This document shows, in pieces, positions 34,592 to 60,864 of a stretch of 64,000 nucleotides of DNA (its first letter is position 1; each line of letters starts with the position of its first letter). The notes under the pieces are model-generated. The model saw only the letters and a program-made list of their open reading frames with translations, ran no database searches and had not been told where the DNA came from. The position numbers and the translations under genes are program-made. The stretch comes from Paraspadella gotoi (taxonomy: Eukaryota; Animalia; Chaetognatha): NCBI GenBank assembly GCA_051294375.1, contig CM119265.1, positions 27,100,517 through 27,164,516 of the forward strand, read 5' to 3'.

Positions 34592-37500
34592 CTACATCTT
34601 CTTCTTAAACTTTTCCACTTTCTCACGATACAGTTCCTTGTTTTCCGGATGATAAACGTCCATGTGCTCACAGTCGAAAAAGCGAATGGTGCAGGTTGGG
34701 TAGCCTCGAGTTTTGCGCCACTCCATGTGCTCCTCCTGAGCGGTGGCCTCTTCCTCTTCCTCTTCAGCAATGCGTTCGGGATTCATGAAAAACTTCCATC
34801 TCTTCATGCGGGGGATTCTCTCTTGCGAGGGGCACGGGACCTGATGATAAAAGTGGGATTAAATTGTTATGAAATTGGTTTTACAAGCTACAAGGTGACC
34901 TACTGAAGCCCGCAGCTAGAAAAAAATCGCCATTGGCGAACCTGTAAAGTTTTTTTCCATCTTAAAATTTTGTTTTTTAATAAAAACCAAAACCATTTTT
35001 ATATATCCAAATTTTATATTGATTGGTTTTAATTTGACTTGACGATGAGCGGAGAAAAGTTGCCTTCAAAATTGCCTTTCATTTTCAAACACAAAGTTTT
35101 TTTAAAATCTTTTTGTCTAACTTTCTGAATATTTTTAAAAAAACTTTTACATAAAATTGTTCAAAGTACAGTGTGTCCCAATGGTACTGTCTGTTAAGAA
35201 AAGCTTACTGCTCCTATACCAGATCGAAAAACTTTCATTCATTATAATGAATATGAGCACAAGTATGGACCATTTTATAAGATACTTAAATTTTAAAAAT
35301 TGTACAAAGCAAACTCATGTAGTTATTACATAAAGCAATTGGTAAAAATATTTTTTCATTAATTTTTAACAAAAATTTTTTAAATCATATATTTTTTATT
35401 ATTTATCAAATATTTTTTATAATATTGATTAAATAATATTTTAAATCTTTTCTTTAGATGCAGGATAGTAAGAAACTACTTTATATTTTAGCTCCAGAGC
35501 TTTTATAATGCAGTAATCGTTATTTTTAAAATTATCTATTTGCCTTGTTCATATTACTTTTTTAATTGTTTTAATAATAATTTATTGAATAAATAGCAAC
35601 TAATATTTAAAGCCCCTCATTCATTATATTGTGTTTCTTGGCTTTTAAATGATTATATAAATATATATGTCGAGCTTCCACACCTTTTGGAACGAGGAAA
35701 AGAATATCCAAATATATCTATTTAATTACTATAAAAATTATATGAAATAATATGTAGATCTGGAGCATTGCCTTATGTGTTTTCATCTGATCTTACTCTG
35801 GGCGCGATTAATAAAGTGCAATTGACAATACCTTCAGTATATTATATGAACCACTGCCCATAAGTCTGGTCTTCCGAGACGCACAAGACACATTCTCTGT
35901 TCTCATTAAGAAACTAAATAGGTTATGTCTGGTATTGTCGCGACCAAGATTAAATTCAAAGTTTTTTAACTATGGATGGAATCAATATGTCCGATTTATA
36001 AATTGAGGTTTATTAATATTTTCGTTTGCTTCATAACATTCATATACTGTGTTCGTCACTTAATGTTCTGAACCATGAGTAATTCGCTAACTCTTGAGAG
36101 ATTGATCTACGACTGGTATGGCCGCTGTAGTCATTTTATTTATATCGAATACATAAAGAAGTTTCATATATATAAAATGAGTGTAGCTCACAATTAGCTG
36201 TGTTTAAAATAATTTTTTTGGAGAGTCATATTTTGAGCTCCTTCTACATTGTGCCACTATCTGACTATCGTACGATGTCCTGCTAGAAAAAGTTAAGCAG
36301 AAAAAATATAATTACACCCAATACACTTTTTGTACATAAGTAGGGGGAGAATGTTGCATCACATTCTCACTTTGGCGAGTATTAGAAGTCTCATAGTATA
36401 TATACCGACAGGCTCCTGCCTATATATATAAATCAATTGAGAGAGAGAAAAATTACAAAAATGAATAGATAATCGCATGTTTTTGATCCCGACTCTTATT
36501 TTGCAAGGGTGTACCTTCCTCTCAAGTTGTTAGACAGCTCATATCTCGGCAACGCTAAGTGGAGTCACATACTAATTAGATATAATTCCACCTTGGAGAA
36601 TAATACTAATATGAATGTAATTACTTATCGTAGTAGTCGAGAGAGATATCACGTTTTTCATCATAAAGCCTATTTGAAATATCTGGCTACCTTTAAATTA
36701 ATCTATAAAAATAAATTTACAAATTTGACATTTATCATATCCTCTAAATTTATAAAGATATTAACTAAATATTTAAATCTATTCTTTAAAACTCTGTTCA
36801 GTGGTTCGGGAGGCCATCTCCTCAAGAAATATCTCGAGGCTCACAATGATACAGTTTCTGTATCTACAGAAACTGCTGTTATTGTGTACATATTTGAGAA
36901 TACTGGATTATCCCCAAAGATCAACAATAACCTTACTGACGTATTGATTGATAATGAAGCACACTCTCCGCAGTTGAGACAGACTTATCGATTCAAAGGA
37001 GCACTACTACTTTTCACAAATACAGAGTGGGAGTGTATACCAGAAGATGCTTACAAAAGGAATAAAGTGGTAACTATGAATATTGTCAGAACCCATCTTG
37101 GTAAATAGCGCCCTTACTACACCACACATTTTAATATATTCGTTATAAGTCCCTGAAGTAGCATTACTTCTCACTTTCCTTTGTATTCAATTTCTATTCA
37201 TATCTTTCTGAAACTAGTCGTGTATCATTATGGCTTAGGGATCTATGCTTAAATGTTCATTTCTTTTTATTAATGCACGTATTTTATACAAATTAAAATT
37301 TAAATAATTTATATCTATTTAAAATATTTTTTTACATAATTTTTTTAATAAAATTTATTTTAAATAAAAAAATCTTAAAAGCATAAGGATCGTCGCAATC
37401 GCCTAAGAACAAGTTTGAACAAACAATGTCGGATCTGCCTATGATAATTAAATGGTAATAAGCTAACTTGGTCAACTTGCATAATTTAATCAACTTGCAT

Positions 37501-40500
37501 TATTTGGTCAACTGGCATAATTTGGTCAACTGACATAATTTGGTCAACTGGCATAGTTTGGTCAACTGGCATAGTTTGGTCAACTAGCATAGTTTGGTCA
37601 ACTAGCATAGTTTGGTCAACTAGCATAATTTGGTCAATTGGCTTAATTTGGTCAATCAATCAATCAATCATAATTAGAGAGAGAGAAACTTTAAAAAATT
37701 CAAATAAATATGTCTTTTGGTTTTTTAATTTTAACTCTTTTCCACTCTTATGATTCCATCAAAAAATTTATATCCAGGTTTATCACATACTTCCCTACCC
37801 ACACAAAATTCCATTTCAATTTATCTATCCAATTTTTAATAAACATAATAATTATGAGTAAATTTTAAGTAAAATTACTTCAAGTAAATATGACTTTGGT
37901 TTTTTCCATTTTAACTCATTTCCACTCGCACGATTCCATCGAAACGATATATCCAGCTCAATCACACACTTTCCTACCCACACACAAAATTTCATACCAA
38001 TCCATCCATCCAATCACGAGTAATTGGAGTTTTTTGTTAAGGGGGGATGGACGTACGGACGGACGGACATTTTTTTGGCATAATTGATCATAATTCGAGG
38101 TTCTGATCTGATAATAATGATTTACTGACAATATTTTGGGGTGGGACCGACGGACCGACAAAGTGAATTATAGAGTCGGAATCTGCTGAGAAGCAGATCC
38201 GACTAAAAATCTGGATTGACAAAAAATTTTTATACTAAAAAAAAATCAAATTTGAGAAAAGAAAATTAATTTATAAACAAAGAAAAAGAAGAAAAGAATA
38301 AATATAAAGAAAGAATAGAAAGGAAAAAAAGCAAAGAAAGGAAAGAAAGAAAAGAAAGGAAAGAAAGAAGAGAAAGAAAAGAAAGGAAAGAAAGAAGAGA
38401 AAGAAAAGAAAGGAAAGAAAGAAAAGAAAAGAAAAGAAAAGAAAAATCTTAAAAGCATAAGGATCGTCGCAATTGCTTAAGAAAAATCTGGATTGACGAC
38501 AAATTTTGATACTAAAAAAATCAAATTAGAGAAAAATAAAGAAAAGAAAATTAAAAAAAATAAAAAAAATCCATGAAAAAAATTCAAAAAAATCTAGGAT
38601 GTAAATTTGGGAATAAATGGCGATAATAAAAGTTTAATTGAAAAATTAATCAGAGATAGAGAGAAAAAAAAAGAAATCAAAAGGCAGCAGCAGAAAAGAG
38701 AAAAAGAAAGAGCCCCTGCAGAGCCAGCTGCAGAGAAAGAAATCAAAAGGCAGAAGCAGCAGGAGAAAAGAGAGAAAAAGAATAAGCCCCTGCAGAGCAA
38801 GCGACAGTCTCGTTTTTTTTTCACTTTGTCTATGAATCAGTGACTAGGGAAAAGAGAGAGGGAGAGAGATATGTAATTAAAAGAGAAAAGAGAGAGAGAA
38901 AGAAAAATAAAAATAAAAGAGAAAATTTGTTTGTTTTGATAAAACGTAAACAAAACATATTTAATAACTGTCCAGACTCAATTTTAAGCACATCGATGAT
39001 GAGAAGCTGTATATAAATTTTCAGCTTCCTTCCCCCAAATTTAATCATAGAAAAAGGCGATCTATAATTTGGAACGCCGACGACGACGACAACGACGACG
39101 ACGCCGCCACTTATGGGCAAAAGCGATACAATATCGTCGCAAACGCTAAGCGATTGCGACGATAAAAAGCGTGACGACGACGACAACGAAGACGGTCACA
39201 AAGAAGCAATAGCAAACGATTATCTCACCCAAGACGGGCCTAAGCCTGGCAAGATAAAAACTTCTGGCTTTTTTTGTAAGTTCAGTCCTATAATAACGTT
39301 TAAATGTTAAATTTTGCTCGTTAGAATTAAATTAATTGACACAATTTACATTAAAATAGTTACGTTTATCAAGGAAATACTGTACAATGATTCATGGTGG
39401 CATTGACAAGGTTCATAATTTGTGGACTTGTTTCATTTTAATTTTGAAAAAATCATAATTAAAAAAAGTTAAATTCTAATTTAGGCCTCAATTTCAGTAA
39501 TTATTCGCGAATAGAAAAAAATAAGTCACTATTGGGACATCATAATATATGTTGATAATTCGAAAAACTAGTTGTATATTCTTATTGATACATGAATAAG
39601 TTCTTGAAAGTTTTTTTTCAAAGATACTTTTATTTAAACTTTCATGGGCGTAAAAGAGGAAATTCCTGCCCAAATTATTATACATAAAAAAAGTTGGGGA
39701 CGATGGGCACGATCAGAATTCAAAAAGTTGATCTCGACGTCGACAGATGTTATATTCACGGATCCATTTCATATAGACATGAAGACCATAACTTAAAGAA
39801 ATTCTATTTTTTCATTTTCAGGACGGATTACTTTTGAAAACATTGGTATTAAAAGCTAACGAGGGAATAACAAGTAGTTAGCCCCAAACAAGTTTAAAAA
39901 AATGGCATCTTTATTTAGTGGTGCCAAAAAAAAAAAAGCAGTGATTGGAATCAGGCGCACGCTTCAAATATTGAAAAAATTTTCATATTGGGTAAAACAT
40001 AAAAACACTCGCATCGCAAATATGTGTTTCAAGAAAATGAACACGTTCAGTTGTCATATTATTGGATCCAAAAATGAAGATTTTTGAAAATTATTTGATG
40101 CGAATATAAACAAGGAATAGAGATCAACATTAAATAGCTATAACATATGTAAGTAATAAATCTTCTTCAGTTTCCAACAAGCCATTGCAACATTTTTCCA
40201 TTAATGGCTGTAAAAAAATAAAAATACAAAAAAAAGAACAAAGAAAAGTAAGAGAATAATTTGAAATAAATCCAAAGCTTTCATAAAGACTTAATTTCGA
40301 TTCTAAACAGTTAGAATGAGATTCATATTACTCTAATCATCCTATTGCATTAATTTTACAGAAAGAATCTTATGTTTATTTGGACAATAACGGATAAAAC
40401 ACAGTAAAAACTATTAGCATTGGGACAAAACAATTGACAAAAAGCGCAAAATTCAAATATTTGTTTTTAATAATATATGAATAAAAGCATAAACAGACCC

Positions 40501-43500
40501 TAAGCAATGTCAACTAGTAGAAAGAGTATCAGGAAGATATAAGTCGGTTTAAGAATCTTGTATTACCAATTCTCATATCATACTTTATTTTAAGACTCCG
40601 TCCTTTGCAGACATTGATGGGAAAAGAATCTTTGAATCGTAGTTTGGACCATCTTTCATTATCAATAATACCGTTATTGTACTGTATAGAAGTATTCATC
40701 AAGCAGTATCGAAGCATATTTTCTGTTTTTGGGTCCTGCCACACTGAAAGTTAAAAGTAGATAAGCTTATATAATATATATTTAGAAATTTGGTATGAAC
40801 GATCCCGATGTGAATACAAATAGAACTATCAAGGTGAATTTCAATATTTGACCCCTTGCTTGGCCGAGATATGAGCCTCCCAGAGGGGTCACCCATAGGG
40901 GCAAAAAATGGTTAAAATTGTTTTAAATTTGTCTAAATTTTGGGACTGCGGATAAAATGCAACGCCAAGGATGGTGCATTCCCCCTCTGAGCAAATGGGA
41001 TTGGCTGAACGATAATGGATGTGAGGCGGTATAAATATACCACCATAGTACCTCATTTTATAATATGAAACATTCTTTATGTATTCGATATGAATAAAAT
41101 GACTACAGGGCCATACAGTCTGGCCAGTAGAGCACAGTGAAAGTTAGGAACGGAAATTCTAAAAATCAATTATAAACAACATACCATCAGTGAACATTAA
41201 CTTGCAAAAAAAAAAAAAATTTTTAAAAAAATTTTTGCAGTAGGCTATATTTATATATAGTACTATCCTTATAAAATCAAAAAAATTTAAAATAGACTTT
41301 TCTTAATTTTGATTACAGATTTGAATTCCTCGTCAAAAGTTGATAAACTATATTTAATATATAAAAAATTAATTTTCAGCTTAAAATATAGCTTTTTCTG
41401 ATTTTTGATTCACTTAACCAAGGAAATTTTCAAAAAAAGTTATATTCCTTTATATCAACTTTTTTAACAAATCCAAATCTGCCAAAAAATCTTAGAAAAA
41501 ACTGTTTTACAATTTTATCATTTATTGGATTAGTACTATGTATGAATATGGCTTACTGCGTAAATTGTAAAATTTATTATAAATTTTTTTTATACATAAA
41601 GGTTCATTAGTATAATGTTGTTCGTTCCTCACTTTTAGAATTTTAATTTAAGTTAAATTTAGAAATTTTACTACGCCTTACTGGCCAGTGATACAAAACA
41701 GACACACGTTTGAACAAACAATCTGCCTATGATCATTTACGCTAAGCTGCTAATTAAGTTAATTATGCAAGTTAAAAAAAATTATACAAATTGAAAAATT
41801 TTGCAAGTTAAAAAAATGATGGGAGTTGTTAAAAAAAATGATGCAAGTTGTTAAAAAAATGATGCAAGTGAAAAAATGATGCGAGTGAAAAAATGATAAG
41901 TTAAAAAAATTATTTGTTTGTACTGAAGAGACAGTAATTATTGTTATGAGTTAGTGATAGGAACCGTTCTAATATAAGCAGTCCCTGAGCTTACGGATCA
42001 GGCTGTAACACCCTGTTAGGCGGGTTAAGCGCCCCGTCCCTCTTAACTGCCAGACGACCACGAAGGCTTAGAACCCCTGGACCTTTGGCTTGGGAGGCGA
42101 ATGACTTGCCCTCCGGCACCAAATGGCCGCTGATGACGGTTGGTGGATTTTAGTCCACCATACATCCCCCCCTCCCGTAGGGAGAAGTCCGTTGCGTCTC
42201 TTCTGTGAATTGTTGTTGTTTGGTGGACTATACAGTACGTCAGCCAAGTTTGAGGCCATGTCGGCCTTGAATGTGTTGTGGGCGGAAAGTGCCATGCGCC
42301 AGGTTGAGGGCAAATGTCGCCGGAAAAGTGTTGTTGGTGCTATGCTGTGTGAATTCAGTGATGGGTGCTCGTCGACTAGTCGTTATTCGCTATGATACGA
42401 GCAGAATTATGTTTATGAGAGGATTAGAACCGCTTCATTTATAGAAGCTCCCTGGAGCTTCGGATCAGGGCTGTAACACCCTGTTACACGCGGGTTAATG
42501 GCACCCCGTCCCATCTTTGAAGACTGCCGAAGACGACCACCGGAGGCTAGAACCCTGGACCCTTGGTGGAGAGAGAGGCTTCGCTCTGCACCAAATGGCC
42601 GAGCTGATGAACGGTTGGTTCAGGATTCTTGCTTCCACCGATAGTACCGATCAAGCTGATAGTAACAGTAAGTTAAGTCCTTGCAAACGATTTACATGTA
42701 GTGGCGCAGCCATTGTTTGGTATGGTACGATATGTTCTGATCAGTTAAGGATCACAAATTAAAAGAATTTATCTGGTGATTTATCATCTGATTAGCTGAT
42801 TACGCCGTTTTATTATCGTAGGCAGATCCGACATTTTTGCTCAAACTTGTTTTATTTAAACTCATATTCCTACTCGGTCGGTCCGACTTCCACTCAAAGC
42901 TTAATTCCAGCACAATCACCAACTCTTCACCCAAACACAAAATTTCAAGTAGAATCGCGCTCAAAGCTAATGGGGACGCACGGTACGGACATTCAATTTT
43001 GTGCATAATTTATAGTAATTCGATTGTTCTGACATGAGCAAAGCACTTACGACAAGATTTGGGTGGACTGACGACCGTCACGCAGATCCGGCTAAAAATT
43101 CTATCCTTACGTCTTATTTTAGGAGAATAATTGTTATCGCTATTGATGCCAAACCAATAATTGCTTCTATTTTCGATAAGTGAGTACCGAGCGTAATGTG
43201 CTTGTCTGTGGGTTGCTTAAAACAGAAGTGGGTTAACAAGTTCCAAGATATCATAAATAAAAATTCAAAGGACAAAAGTATTGGCGTCCGAGACGAATAT
43301 GAAGGAGAAAATATTTTTTCCAGATTATTATTTCTTTTTAGCTCTGGTAACGTAATATTCGGAAAACTACCAATGGAGAAATCAATATCCAAATGCGATA
43401 GTGACATTGACTATTTTTGAAGAAATACAGTAAAAAAGTTAGAATGCCAATAATACCCTGAAAGTACCTAAAAATGTTAAGGCATAGCCTGTTTCACGAC

Positions 43501-45960
43501 ATTTTGTTGAAGCTAATCAAGACCAACTACAGAGAATGAAAAAGATATAATAAGTTGGCTCTGATCCAAATCCCATATCACAAGTCGATATTGAGGTTCT
43601 AAAACTATAGAGACAATAGCATGGTTTATCCAGTGGAATGAGCTGGTTGTTTTCGTTGATTTTATAAACTGTACCATTATTTCTAAGTCCATCATAATAA
43701 ACGAATTCGCTTAAAATACACTGAGTACTTGTACCGGGAGGTAAAAGAAAGAATCAGAGCTAAAAAGTGAAGTATAATTTGAGGAAAAGATTCGAGCAGA
43801 ATATGTATAAAATTAACAGAACTAACTAGTTGGGATTTCAAAGCAAAAGAAGGTGATTTAGGGTCGACTCTTTCATCCAAATAAGAATCCATAGCCAATA
43901 TAACATTTCCCAATCCAAAAAGAAACGAAATCAGGGTTATAATTTTTCGCAAAGGACTGCTGTATATTCGCTTGTATTGAACATGACATTTTTGTAAATA
44001 ATAGTTTATGTAAAGACAAGAAATACTTCCATGTATTACCAAAATAATCATCATGAAAATCCCGATAAATTCCTCAACATAAAACGTTTTATTACAAAAA
44101 ATAATAGTGGTTTGAAAATCTGTGAGGACATCTACAAAACTGACCAAAGTAGATAAAAAAAGAAGAGTAGGGACTTTCATTTTGCTTATCAACTGAATAG
44201 TCTTCCTAGAAATACTCACGAAATTCTTTTTTAGCAGTATTCTTATCACTGACTGAAAATTGTTATATATATATATATCGCAAGTTTATATAAACGTCAG
44301 AAAAATGACAAAAATTGAAAAATATAAAAATTTAGGTTTTTAAAATATAACCAAACATTTTTATAAAAGTTTAATTAAAGATCATTTTCATAAGTTCGAC
44401 GATAGTTTTAGTTTTAACTTTAGCAAGAACAATTTTTTTCATATTTTTCAAAATAAAATAATTTAAATATTTGTATTGTCCAGCAATATATACTGCCAAA
44501 AGCAAAATAAGAAAAAAAATTGTTACGCCACTGAATCTCCATCACTCCACTATATTGCAGAGTAAGGCGGGCTAGAATTTACCATTTTTTTACAATATGA
44601 AAAAGGCTGCAATAAAAGTCTTTTGTCCTTTTACAACCAAACTAACTTATGATGTTAAATTTTGATTAAATTTATTTTCCTCATGCATGGAAAGAAGTAT
44701 TTTAATATTTAAAAATATATTATTATATAAGAAATGCCTAAAAATTATTTTTAAAATTTAAATTTTTAAAAAGGATTCTGATAAAGATTAAAAATTTAGA
44801 TAAAGGTTAATATTACATATTTCAAATATTTTAATGATACATGGGCTAAAATTTAAAAAACCTTAAAAAATTAACATCATCATCATTCATTAAATTTAGT
44901 TTTATTTAGTTTTTGTTAATTTTCATAGATAAATAAAATTTTAAAAAGTTGTAATAATAACCGTCATCTTTTAAAGCTCTATCAGAATATGTTAAAAAAA
45001 ATTAAAATTAAAAAAAATTTTTTGGATATTATAGTATTTGGATAATATAAAATGGCTTCCATGCGGTTAACTATAAGATACATCTTAATTTTTTTTTATT
45101 TTTCTGATCTTTAATAAACATATTAACAATATTTATACCGGACTTCTGTTAGTTTGTAACCTGTCCCGCCTTACTGCTTAGCTTTTATATTTGCTATAAC
45201 AGAATTAATAGAGTAATTGTCAATCTAAACAAAGAGGCCTGTCACCCACTCTTCTTTCTAGAAATCATATCTAGAGCACTTACTTTAGATTTGATTAAAG
45301 AGGTTGTTTTGGGATAAAAAATATTAAAAGTATAGTGCTCTCGCCAGACGTTACTATCAAAGAAAATTAATAAAAAATTCCGCGCTGATAAATAAATTTA
45401 AACATTGTGGACGCAACAAGATGTTCGTCCACAACATGTCCGTTATTTGATTTTATAGTAAAAATCGTTGTTTGTAAATAAAATACAAAATTTTCTTCTT
45501 TCAAATTAAATTTAATTAAATTTAACTGGTTAGGCTTATTTTTATGTAACAATATCCTAAAATATATAATTCTTTTTAAATTTGAATGACCTTTCAAAAG
45601 ATATTAATAATGATAACTTTGGTAAGTATTAGGGTGGAGTGATGAAAAGATTGATTTGATTGATTGAACATTATTTTTTTGCTGCCTATGACATATAATT
45701 AATGAATTTTAAACCCTTTTAAAATTTTTTTTAGCATAACAGTATAGCAAATTCAATTATTTATGTAGTAATATCCTTATAAAATCGTAAAATTTCAAAA
45801 TAATTTTTTTTATTTTTAAGAACTGATTTAGGAAAAACAGTTTTTAAGGTCAACAACGATTTATTATTGGATATAAGTCGGACAAGTTTCAATACTTTAT
45901 TAAGAGTCTTCTTCAGCGATTTTTAATAATCAACAATTTTCTCTCTTTAACATTAGCTTT

Positions 45961-45991
<31 letters not shown>

Positions 45992-46097
45992 GAGGGAGAT
46001 TCCAACAAAGAATTTAGAAAGGACAGTGGTCAGATGTGAGGACAGGTGAAGGTAAGGACAGGGAAGAAGATAAGATTGGTTGAAACTTGAAAGGTGA

Positions 46098-46135
<38 letters not shown>

Positions 46136-47558
46136 CAACAGAGGCAGAGAAAATAATTACATTTAGCAATGTACAACAGAATAATAAATGGAAAACTTAA
46201 TACTAAACTAGTAATAACAAAAGAAATTAATAATTTAGTTAACTATTAAGAATGAAATGTGAAAGGGAAAATAAGTTGTTAGGGATAGATAAGTGAAGGT
46301 GTTAGTGAAAGTAAGATAAAGAAAGAGCTCAAAAAGAGCTGGCCCCCCCGGCCTGGCAAATGTAGGACGTGAGGCGATGTGATCGGGTCATTGGCTTGTC
46401 ATAGACTGGAAGTGTATTTTAGTAGGCTGGGGTATGATTCCCAAGGCAGTTCTAATATCCCTCTGGCCTGATAAGCCTGCCGACGGCCCCCTCTCGCCTG
46501 ACGACGAGGCGGGTGGTTATCTGTTCTGGCCTGCTTAAATGCAGGGGATACAGATTCCTCTCCTTCTTCCTGCAGCCGTCGTTTTGGGCGACGCTCGGTG
46601 CGAGGAGAGTCACACCAAGTTGCTGCAAGTTTGGGAGAGGCATCGGGCGTCCATTGCCTGCTGAGAGGCCTCCGCCTGACCCGTTGAGTAGGGACAGGGG
46701 AACTACCGTGCGGTTGGGGTGGCGTTGGGCGTTCCACCTCCATTTTGATAAGCGAATCATAGCTTGGAGGGAGGTCGAATCGTCCTCCATCACGGTTCAG
46801 AGAGGGCTCGAGGGCTTTGATGTAAATTGCCTCTCTAATACCTCTAGTGAACCAGTTTTGGTCATGGGACAGCACGAGACAGTCCGTCTCTCTAAACAGA
46901 TGGCCAGAAGATGCCGAATGCTCGGCAATAGCCGACAAAGTGACCACGGGCGTCACGATAGGGCTTTATGTGCTGGTTTGAACCGATCTGAGAGAGATTT
47001 TCCGGTTCTCGCCCACGTATGCTGCTGAGCAGGTTTGGTTTCCTTGCCTGCACAGGCCACCCAGTAGACAGCTCCTGAGGTGTTCGGTCTGGGAATTTTG
47101 TCTTTCGGTTTCACCAAATGCTCACGTAAAGAGCCGCGGGCCGTCACTGAAGTGGAGATTCCCTGCTTTGCTAGCACCCGCCCAATGGTTCAGTGATCCC
47201 CTGGTGGTAGGGGAGGGACAGGTGGCCCACGTTCTTGAGACGCTTCTGCTTATCTCCAATTTGCGCTGTGGTGGGCGCGGTAGGTCCTTTAGCAGCAAGG
47301 CCTCGTTCGTCCTCCTGGGGGCGGAGGTTGAACTTGCGTCAGCGGTTACTTGCTCTTTTTGAGCTCTTTTCTTTATCTTACTTTCACTAACACCTTCACT
47401 TATCTATCCCTAACAACTTATTTTCCCTTTCACATTTCATTCTTAATAGTTAACTAAATTATTAATTTCTTTTTGTTATTACATAGTTTAGTATTAAGTT
47501 TTCCATTTATTATTCTGTTGTACATTGCTAAATGTAATTATTTTCTCTGCCTCTGTTG

Positions 47559-47596
<38 letters not shown>

Positions 47597-47702
47597 TTCA
47601 CCTTTCAAGTTTCAACCAATCTTATCTTCTTCCTGTCCTTACCTTCACCTGTCCTCACATCTGACCACTGTCCTTTCTAAATTCTTTGTTTGAATCTCCC
47701 TC

Positions 47703-47735
<33 letters not shown>

Positions 47736-50700
47736 AAAGCTAATGTTAAAGAGAGAAAATTGTTGATTATTAAAAATCGCTGAAGAAGACTCTTAATAAA
47801 GAGTTGAAACTTGTCCGATTATATCCAATAATAAATCGTTGTTGACCTTAAAAACTGTTTTTCCTAATTTACAAACACAACGAAAAGAAAGAATCATAAC
47901 AAGAACTGATTTGAATTCGCTGTAAAAAACTAAGAAACTTTTATAAAATATGTTATATGATATTTTAATGTTTAGATCACAAAAAATGACAAACGTTTTA
48001 ACATATATAAGTTTCTACTACAGAGAATAAAAAAGTCAGGAATTTTCACCTTTTTTCTTATTTTAAACATTGAAGATGATAGAATTTTTGATAACATGTT
48101 TTATATTTTTGATTCAACTTTTTTTGAAGAATCTGAATCTTTATTAAAATTTAAAAAAAAAATATTTTTAAAATTTACTATTTATAAGAATATTACTACA
48201 AATATATTATATTTTACTATTCTGTTCCCGAGATAATATGAACAAAATATTTTTTGTACTAGTTAATCATGCTATCTCACATCTAAATATCATTGTTCGA
48301 TCATTCAAATAATTTTTTTGTTCTTGAGTGCTCCACTCTAATGGGCACTCAATTTTTTACATACCTTTTTTAGTTATTGGGACCTGTTTAAATTTATTTT
48401 CATTACAAAGATTGTCACCTAATTTTTGTTTAGATTTAAAACAGGTATTAATGACTTATTACTAGGGACCAACTCCAAAGATAATATAAAATTTTGACTA
48501 TTAGTAGCCATAGCCGATGAAATTTAAATGCTAATGTATACAACGTTAAAATAATCTATCATGAGCATTGATTATAGTATTAAAATATTTTTTTTCAAAA
48601 ATTATTTTTTTTGAGTGTACTCGACGAATTAAAATTATTATATTACTATTATTATATGTAAAAAAAAGAAAAATTTTGAAATATTAAAATTTTTTAATAG
48701 ATTCTGATGGAGCATAAAAAGTTAAACAAGAAATATAATTACAGCTTTTAAAAATTCTTACGTTTTCGTAATAAAAATTAAAAAAAACTGATAAAATCNN
48801 NNNNNNNNAATTAAAAAAAAATGATAAAATCATCAAAAGATGATGATGATAACAATTTTTTATGGTTTTTCTTATTTTTGTAACGCTAACTTATCATAAA
48901 AATATTTAAAAATGAATTATACTTCGTGTAGACAACTTTTTATTTAGCTATCTGAATCTGGTCTTAAAATTTAAAAATTCTAAAAGAAATTTTGGCCTTT
49001 CCTACCTATAAATAAATATTAAAAAAATAATTACTAGGGTATAGAGCCATATTATAAATTTTTTGTCCATTGAAAGTATTCTTAAAAATGTCTCAATATT
49101 CGTTTGAGCATGTACTCTCTCTAAATTTTTGACTCTCCCCATTGACTGGGGCTACCCCTATTATTACTTGGGCACCATCGTAACTGATGTGAGATTCCCG
49201 GAATGTAGGGGATACAAGGAAATGGTCTAAAATCTATGTGTAGGTTAACATTTCGGAAGGGAAGGACGTCAAGCAAGTTCTCTGGTATGTCTGAGTCATT
49301 GTGACTTTTAGGGGTGATGGTTGCATTTTGTGTAATGGCTCGTATTTTTTTATCCAAATTTTTAACTTCTGGTGGTTCTTGCTGTTTCTTCAAAGTTTAA
49401 ACGGTTATGTCCGTTATCTTCTTAAAGTTTAATGGGGAGTTGGATTTCCCTTTCTATATGTTTAGGGCTTTTGCCCTTTATTTTGTTTTATTTTTTTATT
49501 TTGTTGTATCCTTTTTTGACCTGTTAGTTGACCTAAACTGATGTGTACTTACACTCTCTATGGAAACAGCCAGGTTGCCTGTGATGCCCATTGGGATGGG
49601 GAATCTTACTGTTGGCTTTGGGGGCTTCCCACCCTCAGTGACGGTTCCTGTCACTGGCGCGGTTACCCAAGGACGGTCTCGCTTTGCCAACGCAGAGGGA
49701 AGTCGTCAGGACTGTGGATGGAACGCAACGCTTGGGATGGTGCGTTCCCCTCTGATCCAATGGGTTTGGCTGAATGATGGTGGATGTGAGGCGGTGTGAA
49801 TATACCGCCACATCTCTTTAATTATTTGTTTTCCACTGATGATGATATAAAAAATATTTGGCAAAAAAATTATTTGTTTTTGTACAGATATCTTTATGTC
49901 TTCATCAAAATTTAATCACGCTGTGCTTGTAATGACGTTAAAAGTTAGACAAAAAGATTGAAAAAAAAATTGAGTTTTAAAATAAAAGACGATTTTTAAG
50001 GCTTCTTTTCTCCGTTCATTGCCTCGTTAAATCATAACCAATCAATATGAAATTATGATACATAAATGATTTTAGCTTTTATTACAAAAATATCTTTCGG
50101 ATTAAAAAATATTCACAGGTTTGCAAATTATGATTTTCTTTAAGCGGCAAGTTTCGGTGTGTCACCTTGTATAACTTTAAATAATAATATCATTTCACTC
50201 GCCTGTCCCTCTACTTCGCAGATGCACCAACGAGAGCAGTCGTAGCCAAAGTTGGCGGGATTAGTGGCCTCCTGGATCGCTTCTCTCTTTAGCATTTTCG
50301 GAGTTTTTCCTTTGAAATGAGAGATGATTTTAAGAGTTGTAGAGGTATATAATACGTTTTATCGGCAGATAAAATAACGAAGAGATCAGAGAGACATTCA
50401 ATTTACAAGATAATGAATGAGGCTGAATAAAGAAAGCGCTGTACTTATTAACGAAGAGGGAGAGTAAGAGTGATCGAGAAAGAGAGATCAGTACATAACC
50501 GGCTTCCTTCGCGACCACTATTAAACAGAGTGGCCAACTTGGGTCAAACCCGTGATGGCGAAATCGTGTTCAACACAGGGTGAAAATAGAATAAAATAAA
50601 TAAAATTTAAATTTGTATTAACTTATTTATTATCAAATTACCACAAGAAAAGTAGCTGTGACTAAATACCCTCAGACTAGAATGAAGAAGCAAAGCATTT

Positions 50701-51075: not shown

Positions 51076-51139
<64 letters not shown>

Positions 51140-51329
51140 CCTGAGGCAATGACCAAATGCAGAATTGCTTCAAGCCCTCGCTTGTGGGCTGAGCGTCGTT
51201 GAAATGAGCCAAGACAACCTGGACGGCGTTACGGAGGAAGAGGGGCTCCGCCTCCAAGTATTTCGTCGTCTGGATGAGAGGCGTGGGGCCCAGCTTCCAA
51301 CGGAAGAGTGAGAGCGAGAGCCGCACCAT
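34592..51329 (-). CDS. MRPS25: Mitochondrial ribosomal protein mS25, 4 exons (51329-51141, 50896-50725, 50309-50203, 34840-34592)
   Basis: LPQ|IQYRNPNVQI...TPSPWVKFFL...VLVDC...IKKILG|KT...NPANFGYDCSRWCICEVEGQ|VPCP. The conserved CICEVEGQVPCP motif is split by a 15.4-kb GC-AG intron, and all exon phases match. Confidence 0.92.
37370..39166. mobile_element. Helentron-associated (HINE/DINE-like) non-autonomous element with a second such element nested at ~37407-38205; related copy at ~8390-9465
   Basis: Outer family: subterminal ATCGTCGCAA, internal GAAA-rich microsatellite, 3' hairpin ATCGTCGCAA...TTGCGACGAT. Inner family: GTCGGATCTGC, 18-bp tandem TTTGGTCAACTGGCATA(A/G), GGAC microsatellite, 3' hairpin AGTCGGAATCTGC...GCAGATCCGACT. 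No TSD; inserted in an A-run. Confidence 0.65.
41923..42162 (-). mobile_element. tRNA-derived SINE-like repeat, ~240 bp; other copies at ~30235-30470, ~42405-42620, ~51494-51666
   Basis: Four clearly similar copies (ataagcagtccctgagcttcggatcaggctgt...ggcgggttaagcgccccgtccctcttaactgc). The minus strand has A-box-like AGCGGCCATTTGG and B-box-like GGTTCTAAGCC about 40-50 nt apart. Confidence 0.65.
43114..44180 (-). pseudogene. XK-related (scramblase family) membrane protein gene nested in MRPS25 intron 3; disrupted reading frame
   Basis: MKVPTLLFLSTLVSFVDVLTDF (DxxTD in TM1), LLESFPQIILH (ESxPQ motif), QLIISFSFSVVGL. Frame breaks near 43695 and 43515; AT-rich codons. Possible further exons at ~40745-39850. 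Confidence 0.6.
44560..45177. mobile_element. AT-rich MITE-like element; relatives at ~1960-2300, ~31250-31700, ~41120-41690, ~48600-49080
   Basis: Short terminal inverted repeats GTAAGGCGGG / CCCGCCTTAC. Internal inverted GATTCTGATA(G)AG / CTCTATCAGAAT motifs and (ATG)n shared among copies. Confidence 0.5.
45876..45922 (-). ncRNA. Second hammerhead copy in the sense-orientation 3' pLTR, with stem II mismatches
   Basis: Minus strand reads aaatcg-CTGAAGA-agactcttaataaagtatt-GAAA-ctt-GTC-cgactt. Confidence 0.7.
47775..47820 (+). ncRNA. Minimal type I hammerhead ribozyme in the inverted pLTR
   Basis: AATCG-CTGAAGA-a-GACTCTT-aata-AAGAGTT-GAAA-c-tt-GTC-CGATT: conserved core, stem II, very short stem III, GUC cleavage triplet, stem I AATCG/CGATT. 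Confidence 0.8.
48799..48808. other. Assembly gap (10 N)
   Basis: Run of n with similar sequence on both sides (aattaaaaaaaa.tgataaaatc). Confidence 0.99.
49150..49540 (-). mobile_element. Fragment of a second Penelope-like element (RT-EN linker region)
   Basis: ORF 49121-49393 contains CIPYIPGISHQLR, resembling the (L/I)PY..G.S..L linker between RT and GIY-YIG in PLEs. Confidence 0.5.
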
Positions 51330-51333
51330 CTTC

Positions 51334-52473
51334 TTAACTGGCCAATTTGGGCGTGCGCCTATGTGTCAGGCAGACGGAGAAAATATAAAGAGTGGTGGTA
51401 TAATATTACCAAAATAATCAGAAGAGAATTGAAAATTTTAGTAAATTTTATTCCACATAAATTAAAATTGAATTTAAATTGCATTAAAATTAAAGAGACA
51501 GAATAATTGTTATGAGTTATGAGAATAGAACCGTTCGATATAAGCAGTGCCTGAGCATCGGATCAGGCTGTGACTCCATTTCACAGGCGGGTTAAACGCC
51601 CCGTCCATCTTAACTGCTAGGCGGCCCCCGGGCTAGAACCCCGGACCTTTGCCTCCTGCACCAAATGAACGACACCAGAATAACAACATGTAATTTAATA
51701 AAGAAACGCCAGCCTCTCTTTCCTCTCACTTGATGATTTTCCTCCAGAGAACGGCTCGTCCGCCGGGAGTCTTGAGTCGCGTGGCGAAACCGTGTTTCGT
51801 GCGGCGCTTCTTCGCGTCGGGTCGGTAGGTCCGCGGGTGGTTGAGGCGCTTCGGCGGCGTCGACGAAGAGTTAGGGGGGGAGAGAAATTCGCGAACCTAA
51901 AGAATGGACAGAGTTGGGGGGGGGGGATAAATGACGGGGGAGAGAAGTTTACTTGGAAAAGAGACGCATCGTCCCTCTCACAGGATAATAACATATCATG
52001 ACCCAGCAAGTTTTCAGTCAAGACTCTCTCAGTCTCGATAATTCATTCGAAGAGTCCCTATTAATAAAGTGGTATAATATTTCAAAGATCGTTTCAATTT
52101 TATAAAAGGACCGCTTTCATACTTTTTTAATCACGTGATCGTAGGAAATTGCGTTCTCTTATGAAAGTGACTGCGGCGCAAGACCCGAAACATGCCGGTT
52201 CATGTTTCTTCAATCTTCATACAGAAGAGCAAACTTACTTACTTAAGAAATGAATCAATAACTTACCCTAGAAACTATCGAGACGGAGGGCGTAGCGAGT
52301 GCGGAGAAGGATCTCCTCGATCCGCAGGTGAAGGGAGAAGCGAAGAAGGGAGAGAATAGGGAGTTGAAAACGAGAGAGCGAGAGACGACCGAGGACGAGG
52401 AGGCGAAGGCGGAAGCGCGTCCAACGGAGGCGAATCGGAACAGCGACGTCAATCGCGACGTCAAGAGCGACAT
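51334..52473 (-). CDS. MRPL34: Mitochondrial ribosomal protein bL34m, 3 exons (52473-52267, 51896-51730, 51358-51334), about 132 aa; not captured as such by the ORF track
   Basis: Exon 1 is a Ser/Arg-rich, acid-free mitochondrial presequence. Exon 2 contains RTYRPDAKKRRTKHGFATRLKTPGGRAVLWRKIIK (L34 signature). Exon 3 adds RTPKLAS-TAA. Phases 0 and 2 match GT-AG sites. Confidence 0.88.
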
Positions 52474-53493
52474 GACGATTTCATGACGTTAGATATCTTG
52501 ATTTTTTTTTTTTAGGTTTGACTGCTTGAGGTGGGAAGAAGAAAAAAAGAAGGCTCGATATATTTCATTCGTGGCGATGATACCAGTCGAACAGGCTAAC
52601 TCGTTTTCACGTTTTTTACGTTACGTACGAAGAAGTAAATAATTCTATCTCGAGTTGCGATAATAACCAGACAGACAAAAGAATTAATTTATTAAGATAT
52701 TTTTTGGGGGGCTATCTTGACGACCGCCCGAACGATTAGCTAAAATAAAATTAACGGGTATTTCATCTCCTCAGTGGACGGCGAAAGCAAAACGACGCGG
52801 GTTCTCAAAATGAAGCATCGAATCGGTCGCAGAGAACCCGGACAACCCCGGGCTTTTTTCGGAGCGCACGAGAACAAATCCGCCAATTTTCAATAAGGCT
52901 TATTGACCGTACAAAAAACGTAGCATCGGGGGGAATAAAATACGTAAGTTATAACCCCGACCCGCAAACAAAACACGAAACAAAACACTTATTTCGGAGC
53001 GGATCTTACACCCAGTGATTAATTTTTTGAAAGTTATTAGCAATTACCGTAAGTGTAGGACATGTAACGACCTCGGAAGGAAATGTAAAAAGGGAATAAG
53101 TTGCTAATGTAGCGATACGAATTAACTAGTGAGAATTTTTTGTTTTGTTTTATTTTATTTTTTTTTTTTTTTGTTTATCACAACTACGATTACAAAATAC
53201 GAATACGGATATAAGTATTTGAATTTCACAGTCGTCCACGAATGGCTAAGGACGGACGAATACGACTCGCCATAAAAAGGACTAAAAAAGGTGCTTCTCT
53301 AATAAAGTAATATCTAAGAAGAGGCGAAAAAAGTTGAATTCTTTCGAAAAAAAAAGTCTGGTGCTTGTAAGCGACGACATCGACCGCAAGGATTTATTTT
53401 CAAATTTCGCTCTTTTCATCGCGACGACGGCCAAAGGGACAAAAGAGACAAATTGTCGATGTGAATTGAATGCGAAAACACAAACGGAGAGGG

Positions 53494-59600: not shown

Positions 59601-60864
59601 ATACCCAAAACTTGTTCCCTGAGAAAGGAATTTCGGTGCCTTTAGTTTTTTTGTTTTTTTTCTGCGCCTCATTTCTTAGAAAAGCGACTCCCCCCATCGG
59701 GACAAGGTTTCGAATATTTCAAATTTTTTCGTAATTTTTTTTAAATCAATGGATCCATCCCCCCTTAAAAAACCTGGGAACGTTTTGGCCGCCGGCGGTG
59801 GCCTTGTTGAGCACGTCGACAAGCTGGCCGCCTTCGCACAGTTCGGTCAAAAGGAGAAACTCTGCCTGACCGTGATCAGATTCTTCTTTGCCGATCGACG
59901 CGGCAGAGATGAACTGGATGATGTTGGCGTGACCAGAGAGACGCTTCAAATACTGGATTTCCTACAAATGGGAAATATGGACCACATTAGTGTTGAAGGG
60001 GGGGGGGAGAAATTTAAGCATTTTTATGAGTGGCTCGCTGTCTTCATCAAAAAGGTTGTCCGCATCATTATCCACACGATCAGTTAAGTAATCTCTGAGG
60101 TCATCAACATCATGATCCCCAACGAGCTCATCTAATCAAATGCCTGGAGGATTTCGGTGGTGGCGTCCTTGCTGGAGGCCAAGAGCCTCTTCAAGGCGAA
60201 ATCCTTTCTCGATCCAATTTCTTCGGCGACAAAGACGAAGGCGAATCCTCCTTCGGCGATCACGCGTTTCACGCGCAACTTGCGAGGTCCTGATGGAAAC
60301 AAAATGTTTTGTTTAATTTAAAGCCAATAGTATATTAATTAATTAATTAATTAATTACGCTCCAACATATAATTTCATCCGTAAACTCGGGGACGCGTTT
60401 CGCTGTAAGGATCGATGCTTGGGCTAAGTGCCCAATTTTTTTTCAACCACTTTTTTCTCGGTTAACTTATTTCTCGGGCAAATTTAAAAAGGAACAATTG
60501 TTTTACACTTCAGTTCTTTAGTGTTAACTCTTGTCCGACAATTAAGCCTTACCCAATACCCATTAAGCAGTCTATGCCTTACCTAATACCCATTAAGCAG
60601 TCGATGCCTTAGCCAATGCCCATTAAGCATTCGATGCCTTACCCAATGCCCATTAAGCATTCGATGCCTTACCAAATACCCATTAAGCAGTCGATGCCTT
60701 ACCCAATAAGCAGTCGATGCCTCACCCAATACCCATTAAGCAGTCGATGCCTTACCCAACTCGACCACATTTCCGACAAAACTATTGTCGGGTGCTCCGC
60801 CGCCGCCGCCTCCGCCGCCGCCCTCTTGGAACCCGCCCATTAGAGAGCGGAAGAAACCCGCCAT
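53618..60864 (-). CDS. GAK: Cyclin G-associated kinase / auxilin (NAK kinase, PTEN-like, C2 and J domains), about 17 exons
   Basis: ATG at 60864. [40 protein letters not shown]; PTEN-like [12 protein letters not shown] and LHCLDGKS; DPF motifs; J domain [14 protein letters not shown]...ACLCVHPDK...FMELNDAW. Confidence 0.96.
60545..60760. repeat. 30-bp minisatellite (~7 units) at the start of GAK intron 1
   Basis: Unit cccattaagcagtcgatgccttacccaata. On the minus strand the consensus unit carries TTGG/GTAAGG. Confidence 0.92.

What the first reader, a model, noticed from the sequence alone, without database searches (positions are those of the whole stretch)
51320..51735. MRPL34 and MRPS25 share one exon: stop and start only 4 nt apart (candidate bicistronic or cis/trans-splice switch for two mitoribosomal proteins)
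Seen: on the minus strand, MRPL34 exon 2 ends ...ATC ATC AA|GTGAGA (51730). The next acceptor CTGACACATAG| (51359) opens G CGC ACG CCC AAA TTG GCC AGT TAA GAAG ATG GTG.... Splicing completes MRPL34 as KRTPKLAS*, and the MRPS25 ATG (51329) follows 4 nt later, leaving no room for a poly(A) site or promoter. Known: bL34m ends K-x4-L-x2-stop (human KGRKSLSH, from memory), matching in length and Leu position. Inference: either one mRNA yields a large-subunit and a small-subunit mitoribosomal protein by re-initiation, or the same acceptor is used in cis (MRPL34 mRNA) versus in trans with a spliced leader (MRPS25 mRNA), coupling their stoichiometry. Alternative: without this splice MRPL34 stops at TGA 51728-51726 with ATTAAA at 51699-51694, a 7-aa shorter protein.
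Basis: partly seen in the sequence, partly recalled or inferred. Interest (0 to 1): 0.9.

Follow-up and report, generated by a model that had tools for sequence, protein, structure and literature searches.

The report
Two mitoribosomal proteins, one arrow-worm mRNA
In this animal, likely an arrow worm, the genes for two mitochondrial ribosome proteins share an exon and assemble as one spliced transcript, as they do in a distant relative, and the second protein is likely made by ribosomes that skip the first gene's start codon, probably helped by a tiny overlapping reading frame of a kind best known from viruses.

Summary
The 51730-to-51358 splice is present in an RNA contig that continues through MRPS25, and the RTPKLAS tail matches relatives. 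A distant relative's intronless contig, L001, carries both ORFs 9 nt apart. It begins with the last 10 nt of the published chaetognath spliced leader, so the lineage is likely arrow worms.

There is no AUG in any frame between the two starts (403 and 456 nt). None of six lineage bL34m proteins has an internal Met. A 7-8-codon out-of-frame uORF starts 11 nt before, and overlaps, the MRPL34 start in both DNA sequences.

Best reading (0.55): a mature leader-capped bicistronic mRNA whose MRPS25 ORF is reached by scanning, through uORF bypass and/or leaky scanning, as in KSHV ORF35/36 and Drosophila sloth1/2. The main rival (0.27) is leader trans-splicing at the shared acceptor, hinted at by short MRPS25-only contigs. 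The two can coexist. Translation was not measured, and no leader was seen in this species. Verdict: new variant of a known kind.

The parts
52521..52545 (-). Candidate spliced-leader acceptor for the MRPL34 cistron (pyrimidine tract + AG; first exon base 52524 or 52521, 48-51 nt before the ATG)
   Evidence: Top 0.7-1% of 3068 AG sites with a 16-acceptor PWM. No cis intron ends here in contig 2. The relative L001 has the leader 26 nt before its MRPL34 ATG. The leader itself was not observed in this species.
52461..52484 (-). 7-codon out-of-frame uORF starting 11 nt before, and overlapping, the MRPL34 start
   Evidence: L001 has an 8-codon uORF at the same -11 offset, with a second AUG at -8.
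52267..52473 (-). MRPL34 (bL34m) coding exon 1, presequence-like
51730..51896 (-). MRPL34 exon 2 (L34 core)
   Evidence: PF00468 E 2.6e-9; spliced in contig 2
51359..51729 (-). MRPL34 last intron (371 nt, GT-AG, phase 2), with a dispersed repeat at about 51490-51655
   Evidence: Joint; repeat copies at 30235-30395, 41926-42090 and 42402-42565
51141..51358 (-). Shared exon: MRPL34 last 25 nt incl. TAA (51358-51334), 4-nt spacer (51333-51330), MRPS25 first coding exon (51329-51141)
   Evidence: the same layout with a 9-nt spacer in L001
50725..50896 (-). MRPS25 (mS25) exon 2
   Evidence: Matches solved mS25 chains, E about 5e-9; contig 2
50203..50309 (-). MRPS25 exon 3 (GC donor)
34592..34840 (-). 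MRPS25 last exon (82 aa + stop) after a 15.4-kb intron
   Evidence: The joined protein is 58-62% identical to ten long-form mS25 relatives over 223-241 columns. This joint was outside the stretch laid with reads.

Best explanation
The two genes assemble as one spliced transcript here and in a distant relative, and this is likely a mature, leader-capped bicistronic mRNA of an arrow-worm lineage on which MRPS25 is likely made by ribosomes that scan past the MRPL34 start. Inferred steps: (1) the pair is cut out of a longer operon precursor by spliced-leader addition just upstream of MRPL34; (2) MRPL34's last intron is cis-spliced, so its stop codon sits 4 nt before the MRPS25 AUG and the message cannot end before MRPS25; (3) some 40S subunits start at the MRPL34 AUG and make bL34m; (4) others start at the uORF AUG 11 nt upstream, translate 7-8 codons, stop just past the MRPL34 start, resume scanning over about 390-440 AUG-free nt and reinitiate at the strong MRPS25 AUG; simple leaky scanning past both AUGs would add to this. 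The split at the two nearby AUGs would set the bL34m:mS25 ratio. Shown: exon structure, splice, both ORFs on one contig in two species, leader tail at the 5' end of L001, AUG-free interval, uORF. Not shown: single-molecule continuity, a leader in this species, any translation.
For: Spliced contig spanning both genes. L001 (1271 nt, intronless): leader tail at nt 1-10, MRPL34 37-483, 9 nt, MRPS25 493-1224. The 10-mer equals the 3' end of chaetognath SL2, SL4 and SL3.3 forms in PMC2481426 Table 3; chance at position 1 is about 1e-5 to 1e-6. 8 of 12 lineage bL34m records share an exact contig length with one of 48 mS25 records, cluster by cluster; P about 1e-8 with a post-hoc length range, and one pair was verified by sequence. 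Zero ATG in any frame between the starts in 2 of 2 DNA sequences, against 3 of 957 overlapping 403-nt control stretches. No internal Met in 12 of 12 lineage records plus the window (six lineages, 29-49% identical), against 2 of 18 other L34 hits of 80 aa or more (Fisher 2e-4). uAUG at -11 in 2 of 2 DNA sequences; 0 of 4 other window starts have an ATG within 50 nt; 2 of 2 lineages with N-terminally extended calls are compatible with a -8 or -11 uAUG by back-translation (background 7.6%). The spacer is 4 nt versus 9 nt, so no reading frame is conserved between the ORFs. The MRPS25 AUG has a purine at -3 and G at +4 in both species; the MRPL34 AUG has T at +4 in both. Experimental precedents: PMC3561293, PMC9681215, PMC11892635.
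Against: Contigs do not prove one molecule, and in run X1 contigs bridge other neighbours too (ATP8A1 to GAK, record 4). Contig 2 starts about 660 nt upstream of the MRPL34 ATG, unspliced, with 5 more upstream ATGs; no leader was among the 18 of 268 loose ends shown. Out-of-frame ATG absence alone is weak: P0 0.49 in the window and 0.065 in L001. The Met control includes over-extended bacterial calls; among 9 I judged eukaryotic by eye it is 2 of 9 (P 0.007), and the six lineages are related. 6 of 21 full-length mS25 records in one subclade sit on contigs too short to hold MRPL34. 4 of 12 bL34m records had no length match. One lineage has two in-frame Mets at its start (P0043). The uORF is shown at DNA level in only two species. 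The phylum call rests on one 10-nt match plus the tree.
Confidence: 0.55

Rival explanations
1. Cis/trans switch: the acceptor at 51359 is used in cis to finish MRPL34, whose mRNA then carries MRPS25 as a silent 3' region, and in trans with a spliced leader to give a separate MRPS25 mRNA with a 29-nt 5' UTR. It could coexist with the best explanation as a second source of mS25.
For: The lineage likely trans-splices; in P. gotoi nearly half of genes are trans-spliced and 18% are in operons (PMC12460157). The acceptor is 29 nt from the ATG, like the 26 nt in L001, and scores in the top 5% of AGs. In one subclade, 6 of 21 full-length mS25 records have 342 nt or less outside the CDS, 12 have 821 nt or more and 3 lie between; 5 of 8 non-full ones cluster at 279-342 nt (P about 0.003, post-hoc bins). 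That pattern fits a 5' end or graph branch near the acceptor. Cis/trans sharing of acceptors is common in flatworms (PMC12582326).
Against: It gives no reason for AUG and Met absence across MRPL34 or for the conserved overlapping uORF. The same flatworm paper says cis-splicing at operon-resolving acceptors is very rare. The short contigs' sequences and 3' ends were not seen, and intron retention or broken assembly could give them. No leader was seen at 51358 (18 of 268 loose ends shown). The intron's presence in relatives is untested because L001 is cDNA. AG directly before the ATG is a poor acceptor (23% of AGs score as high).
Confidence: 0.27
2. Termination-reinitiation after the full MRPL34 ORF: the 40S subunit stays on after TAA and restarts 4-9 nt downstream.
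For: The stop and start lie within 20 nt in both species, the range of viral TURBS-type reinitiation (PMC10275272 passages).
Against: Reinitiation falls with first-ORF length, and this ORF has 132-148 codons. It predicts AUG loss only near the stop, not over 400 nt. The recalled TURBS core pentamer is absent from the last 120 nt in both species.
Confidence: 0.08
3. MRPS25 has its own promoter in the 371-nt intron, perhaps supplied by the repeat, and the spliced MRPL34 RNA merely overlaps it and may end at an intronic AATAAA (51076).
For: AATAAA at 51076, 50953 and 50631; short mS25 contigs.
Against: L001 runs from the leader through both ORFs with all MRPS25 introns removed. This model does not explain the AUG pattern. 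The repeat is a dispersed element occupying 44% of the intron.
Confidence: 0.06
4. Assembly artefact, or MRPL34 normally ends unspliced at TGA 51728-51726.
For: De novo contigs in X1 fuse neighbouring genes; ATTAAA at 51699.
Against: The junction is in the contig with 166 nt on its shorter side. The 7-residue tail is conserved. The same pair occurs in an independent record.
Confidence: 0.04

Closest known systems
Drosophila sloth1-sloth2 bicistronic mRNA (PMC9681215; passages read)
   Same: Two mitochondrial proteins on one mRNA, 5 nt between stop and start, ORF2 made by leaky scanning in reporter tests, arrangement conserved in several lineages.
   Different: Those are short paralogous peptides (79 and 61 aa) with no uORF in the passages seen. 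Here the proteins are unrelated mitoribosomal proteins of 132 and 238 aa, from different subunits, with an overlapping uORF and an intron at the junction, in a likely trans-splicing animal.
KSHV ORF35-ORF36 mRNA (PMC3561293; passages read)
   Same: A short uORF (11 codons) overlaps the ORF1 start and diverts ribosomes, which scan 332 nt and reinitiate on ORF2. Here: 7-8 codons and about 390-440 nt.
   Different: Viral, two uORFs, one internal AUG tolerated, shown by mutation. Here it is a cellular housekeeping pair, and the mechanism is inferred only.
Green-algal bicistronic mRNAs (PMC11892635; passages read)
   Same: AUG depletion upstream of ORF2, weaker ORF1 context, short 5' UTR, conserved loci.
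   Different: Different kingdom; plain leaky scanning was favoured; no leader or operon context.
Chaetognath SL-resolved operons, e.g. Spadella RPS14-PCNA (PMC2481426 section 12 and passages; PMC12460157 passages)
   Same: Co-oriented housekeeping genes, near-zero spacing, the same leader family.
   Different: There the upstream gene's poly(A) site precedes the downstream acceptor by 3 nt. Here the upstream stop codon lies downstream of the acceptor, so MRPL34 cannot be resolved as a monocistron.
Nematode SL1-type operons and cis/trans-shared acceptors in flatworms (PMC9258526, PMC12582326; passages read); C. elegans 'alternative operons' (recalled; paper not held)
   Same: No intercistronic space; one acceptor may serve both kinds of splicing.
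   Different: Trans-splicing at this acceptor was not observed, and those models do not predict the AUG-free ORF1.

Membership tests
Animal bicistronic mRNA translated by scanning (sloth1/2, green-algal type) | Both ORFs on one mature spliced mRNA | tested here: inconclusive
   Both ORFs lie on one fully spliced contig in X1 and in L001, and length matches suggest 4 more lineages. These are assemblies, not single molecules.
Animal bicistronic mRNA translated by scanning (sloth1/2, green-algal type) | AUG depletion between the ORF1 and ORF2 starts | tested here: met
   0 ATG in 403 and 456 nt; no internal Met in six lineages. The out-of-frame part alone is not significant.
Animal bicistronic mRNA translated by scanning (sloth1/2, green-algal type) | ORF1 start context weaker than ORF2's | tested here: inconclusive
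   ORF1 has G at -3 and T at +4; ORF2 has a purine at -3 and G at +4, in both species. No species-wide consensus was available.
Animal bicistronic mRNA translated by scanning (sloth1/2, green-algal type) | ORF2 output inversely tied to ORF1 initiation | not testable with these tools
   Needs reporters or ribosome profiling.
uORF-bypass polycistronic mRNA (KSHV ORF35/36 type) | Short out-of-frame uORF overlapping the ORF1 start and ending just after it | tested here: met
   7 and 8 codons, both from -11; 2 more lineages compatible.
uORF-bypass polycistronic mRNA (KSHV ORF35/36 type) | uORF translation is required for ORF2 | not testable with these tools
   No translation data.
SL-resolved operon junction (chaetognath/nematode type) | The lineage uses SL trans-splicing | tested here: inconclusive
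   10-nt leader tail at the 5' end of relative L001; the window's mS25 groups with that clade 100/100. Not seen in run X1.
SL-resolved operon junction (chaetognath/nematode type) | The upstream gene's 3' end forms at or before the downstream acceptor | tested here: not met
   MRPL34's last 8 codons lie downstream of the acceptor.
SL-resolved operon junction (chaetognath/nematode type) | Leader attached at the downstream gene's acceptor | tested here: inconclusive
   None among 18 of 268 loose ends shown; short-contig hint only.
TURBS-type termination-reinitiation | Stop and start within about 20 nt | tested here: met
   4 and 9 nt.
TURBS-type termination-reinitiation | 18S-complementary motif upstream of the stop | tested here: not met
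   The recalled core pentamer is absent from the last 120 nt in both species; the organism's 18S sequence was not checked.
Readthrough or frameshift fusion | Conserved frame relation between the ORFs | tested here: not met
   4-nt spacer (out of frame) versus 9-nt spacer (in frame).

The most novel reading that the evidence does not exclude
Arrow worms have turned an operon junction that cannot be resolved into a lineage-wide cellular version of the herpesvirus uORF shunt. A conserved 7-8-codon uORF over the MRPL34 start sends a fixed share of ribosomes down an AUG-purged ORF to MRPS25. One leader-capped mRNA thus sets the ratio of a large-subunit and a small-subunit mitoribosomal protein, with leader addition at the internal acceptor as a second dial.
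Probability: 0.35. Interest if true: 0.85.

Novelty: new variant of a known kind. Interest (0 to 1): 0.68.

Why it matters
Operons in trans-splicing animals are thought to be resolved into monocistronic mRNAs. This pair cannot be resolved on the MRPL34 side, is kept in relatives whose mS25 proteins are only about 60% identical, and carries the sequence marks of scanning-based ORF2 translation. The 2013 KSHV paper (PMC3561293) named only hepatitis B virus as another case of a short uORF enabling a downstream gene, so a conserved animal housekeeping example would be notable. It offers a compact, testable case of translational coupling between the two mitoribosomal subunits. It also gives a simple screen for hidden bicistrons in chaetognath and other operon genomes: Met-free ORF1 plus an overlapping uORF. 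Such loci are likely mis-annotated as chimeras or single genes.

Tried and rejected
No genome is held for the window, so no leader-RNA gene search or genome-wide controls were possible. Rfam found 0 matches in the window, and the leader 10-mer is absent from it. No RNA holder is on record; X1-X3 are guesses from one study. X2 and X3 gave no usable alignment at the junction. Word-based searches with single exons found nothing. The ESM Atlas gave only unnamed 47-50-aa clusters at low recognition. A viral-contig scan found no relative among 40 pattern hits. L002 and L003 hold a bL34m like the Bugula-named hit, ending KGRHNLHC with internal Mets and no MRPS25 downstream in their + frames; they are an outgroup, not support. 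Folding z-scores of the MRPL34 interval are unremarkable (-0.18 and 0.40): no sign of selection on structure. A guessed fourth MRPS25 exon near 49775 was rejected as a repeat. Literature: 0 papers hold MRPL34 + MRPS25 + bicistronic; 0 hold the recalled C. elegans gene pair; the recalled 'alternative operon' paper is not held; none of the 40 listed of 1,412 papers concerns a chaetognath bicistron by title. The three readable supplements of PMC12460157 lack the gene names; its spreadsheet, which likely holds the operon table, could not be read and may list this pair. Earlier scan findings: none.

Full report
Observation. On the minus strand MRPL34 has three coding exons (52473-52267, 51896-51730, 51358-51334; 132 aa). 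MRPS25 starts at 51329, 4 nt after the TAA, and has exons 51329-51141, 50896-50725, 50309-50203 and 34840-34592 (238 aa). Identities rest on Pfam L34 and solved mS25 chains. One public run holds the stretch (X1). Its contig 2 (2723 nt, 0 mismatches) is spliced at 51730-to-51358 and runs on through MRPS25 exons 1-3 (15 of 45 joints, 18 of 268 loose ends and 24 of 909 pieces were shown). The spliced form adds 7 residues. Solved bL34m chains have 7 residues after the same Lys, and the closest relatives end in near-identical heptapeptides. The unspliced alternative is therefore disfavoured.

Caution on X1. Contigs in this run also bridge other neighbours. Record 4 runs unspliced from the ATP8A1-like last exon into GAK exon 1. 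Contig 2 begins about 660 nt upstream of MRPL34 and has 1152 nt left after MRPS25 exon 3, which likely reaches into the zinc-knuckle gene 205 nt past the MRPS25 stop (inferred). X1 alone thus shows the splice, not a mature bicistron.

Conservation and lineage. A metagenome-collection scan with an alignment of the nearest bL34m proteins confirmed 3 loci among 62 pattern hits. L001 (Ga0307385_10067644, 1271 nt, intronless) carries MRPL34 (37-483), 9 nt, then MRPS25 (493-1224). L002 and L003 are outgroup-like and lack MRPS25 downstream. The first 10 nt of L001 equal the 3' end of the chaetognath leaders in PMC2481426 Table 3 (section read); chance is about 1e-5 to 1e-6. L001's mS25 retrieves 11 unnamed long-form clusters (239-252 aa, 54-99% identical) ahead of all named animals. 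The window's mS25 is 58-62% identical to ten of them and groups with them 100/100 against six named animals; P0051 was left out of the tree as truncated, and long branches meet at that split. I infer an arrow-worm lineage, in which nearly half of genes are trans-spliced and 18% lie in operons (PMC12460157 passages). The contigs behind the other proteins could not be fetched. However, 8 of 12 bL34m records share an exact contig length with one of 48 mS25 records, cluster by cluster (P about 1e-8; about 1e-7 without the verified pair; 4 misses). The spacer differs in frame (4 versus 9 nt), which argues against a conserved fusion protein.

The translation signature. Between the two start codons there is no ATG in any frame in either DNA sequence (403 and 456 nt). 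Only 3 of 957 overlapping 403-nt stretches of five control CDSs are ATG-free. All 12 lineage bL34m records and the window's protein lack an internal Met; P0043 has two Mets three residues apart at its start. They form six lineages at 29-49% identity. Among other L34 hits of 80 aa or more, 2 of 18 lack one (Fisher 2e-4). That control is inflated by over-extended bacterial calls; restricted to nine I judged eukaryotic by eye it is 2 of 9 (P 0.007). The out-of-frame component alone is weak (P0 0.49 and 0.065). In both DNA sequences an out-of-frame ATG lies 11 nt before the MRPL34 ATG and opens a 7- or 8-codon uORF that stops 4-5 codons into MRPL34. None of four other window starts has an ATG within 50 nt, and two further lineages are compatible by back-translation. 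A strong acceptor with no cis partner sits 48-51 nt before the MRPL34 ATG (top 1% of 3068 AGs) and is the candidate leader site.

Mechanism. These features match two experimentally worked systems. One is KSHV ORF35/36, where an 11-codon uORF over the ORF1 start diverts ribosomes, which scan 332 nt and reinitiate on ORF2 (PMC3561293 passages). The other is leaky-scanning bicistrons with AUG depletion or weak ORF1 context (PMC11892635 and PMC9681215 passages). I put 0.55 on a mature leader-capped bicistron with MRPS25 reached by scanning. The uORF route in particular is less certain than scanning in general. All translational steps are inferred.

Rivals. A leader at the shared acceptor (0.27) is supported by lineage biology and by bimodal contig sizes. 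Of 21 full-length mS25 records in one subclade, 6 have 342 nt or less outside the CDS, 12 have 821 nt or more and 3 lie between (post-hoc bins, sequences unseen). Against it: it does not explain the AUG pattern, no leader was seen there, and cis-splicing at operon-resolving acceptors is very rare in flatworms (PMC12582326 passages). The two routes can coexist. Stop-start reinitiation (0.08) fits the short spacer but not the ORF length or the ORF-wide AUG loss (PMC10275272 passages). An intronic promoter (0.06) and an artefact (0.04) remain as minor options.

Novelty. Animal bicistronic mRNAs, including mitochondrial ones with a 5-nt spacer, are known (PMC9681215; PMC2776167 and PMC2276209 passages), as are gapless operons (PMC9258526, PMC7986045 passages). 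I found no report of this pair or of a chaetognath bicistron in the library searches (listings only, except for the papers named). The unreadable P. gotoi spreadsheet and subscription papers may bear on this. The gene names GAK, ATP8A1, ZCCHC9, SF1 and ITCH-like are my recall, guided by Pfam domains. Verdict: new variant of a known kind, interest 0.68.

Noticed in passing
window 474-63460: All recognisable host genes lie on the minus strand: WW/HECT ligase, inositol monophosphatase, CXXC protein, SF1-like, VPS53, zinc-knuckle protein, MRPS25, MRPL34, GAK-like, P4-ATPase. Gaps are 205 nt (MRPS25 to zinc-knuckle), about 250 nt (zinc-knuckle to VPS53) and 1.0-1.2 kb; likely one long operon-like array.
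   Followed up: partly
window 34840-50203: MRPS25 intron 3 is 15.4 kb with a GC donor and is packed with repeats, in an otherwise compact region; it holds ORFs at 43692-44285 (-) and 36473-37108 (+) with no Pfam match.
   Followed up: partly
window 34592-34840; P0045-P0055: This lineage's mS25 has a 65-80-aa C-terminal extension with a conserved V-Y-H-x-E-N motif and a divergent N-terminus compared with the three named animal mS25 proteins aligned; possibly compensating for reduced mitochondrial rRNA (inference).
   Followed up: no
window 51334-51141: The MRPL34 stop is 193 nt upstream of the next exon junction, with three junctions downstream. The mRNA would be an exon-junction-type decay target unless MRPS25 is translated on it or decay is junction-independent (inference).
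   Followed up: no
window 45920-47693: An element with long direct repeats (about 45920-46340 and 47350-47800) around a 188-aa ORF (46399-46965), likely a retroelement remnant.
   Followed up: no
window 14694-17570: A 958-codon open frame, GC-rich and low-complexity, with a weak CXXC zinc finger near the C-terminus (E 6e-5).
   Followed up: partly
window 60550-60760: About seven tandem copies of a roughly 28-nt unit follow the GAK exon-1 donor, each repeating a donor-like sequence.
   Followed up: no
window 34444: A TTTCAG acceptor-like site 57 nt before the zinc-knuckle ATG lies upstream of an AATAAA at about 34417, so the MRPS25 3' UTR may overlap the next cistron's 5' end; PWM score only moderate.
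   Followed up: partly
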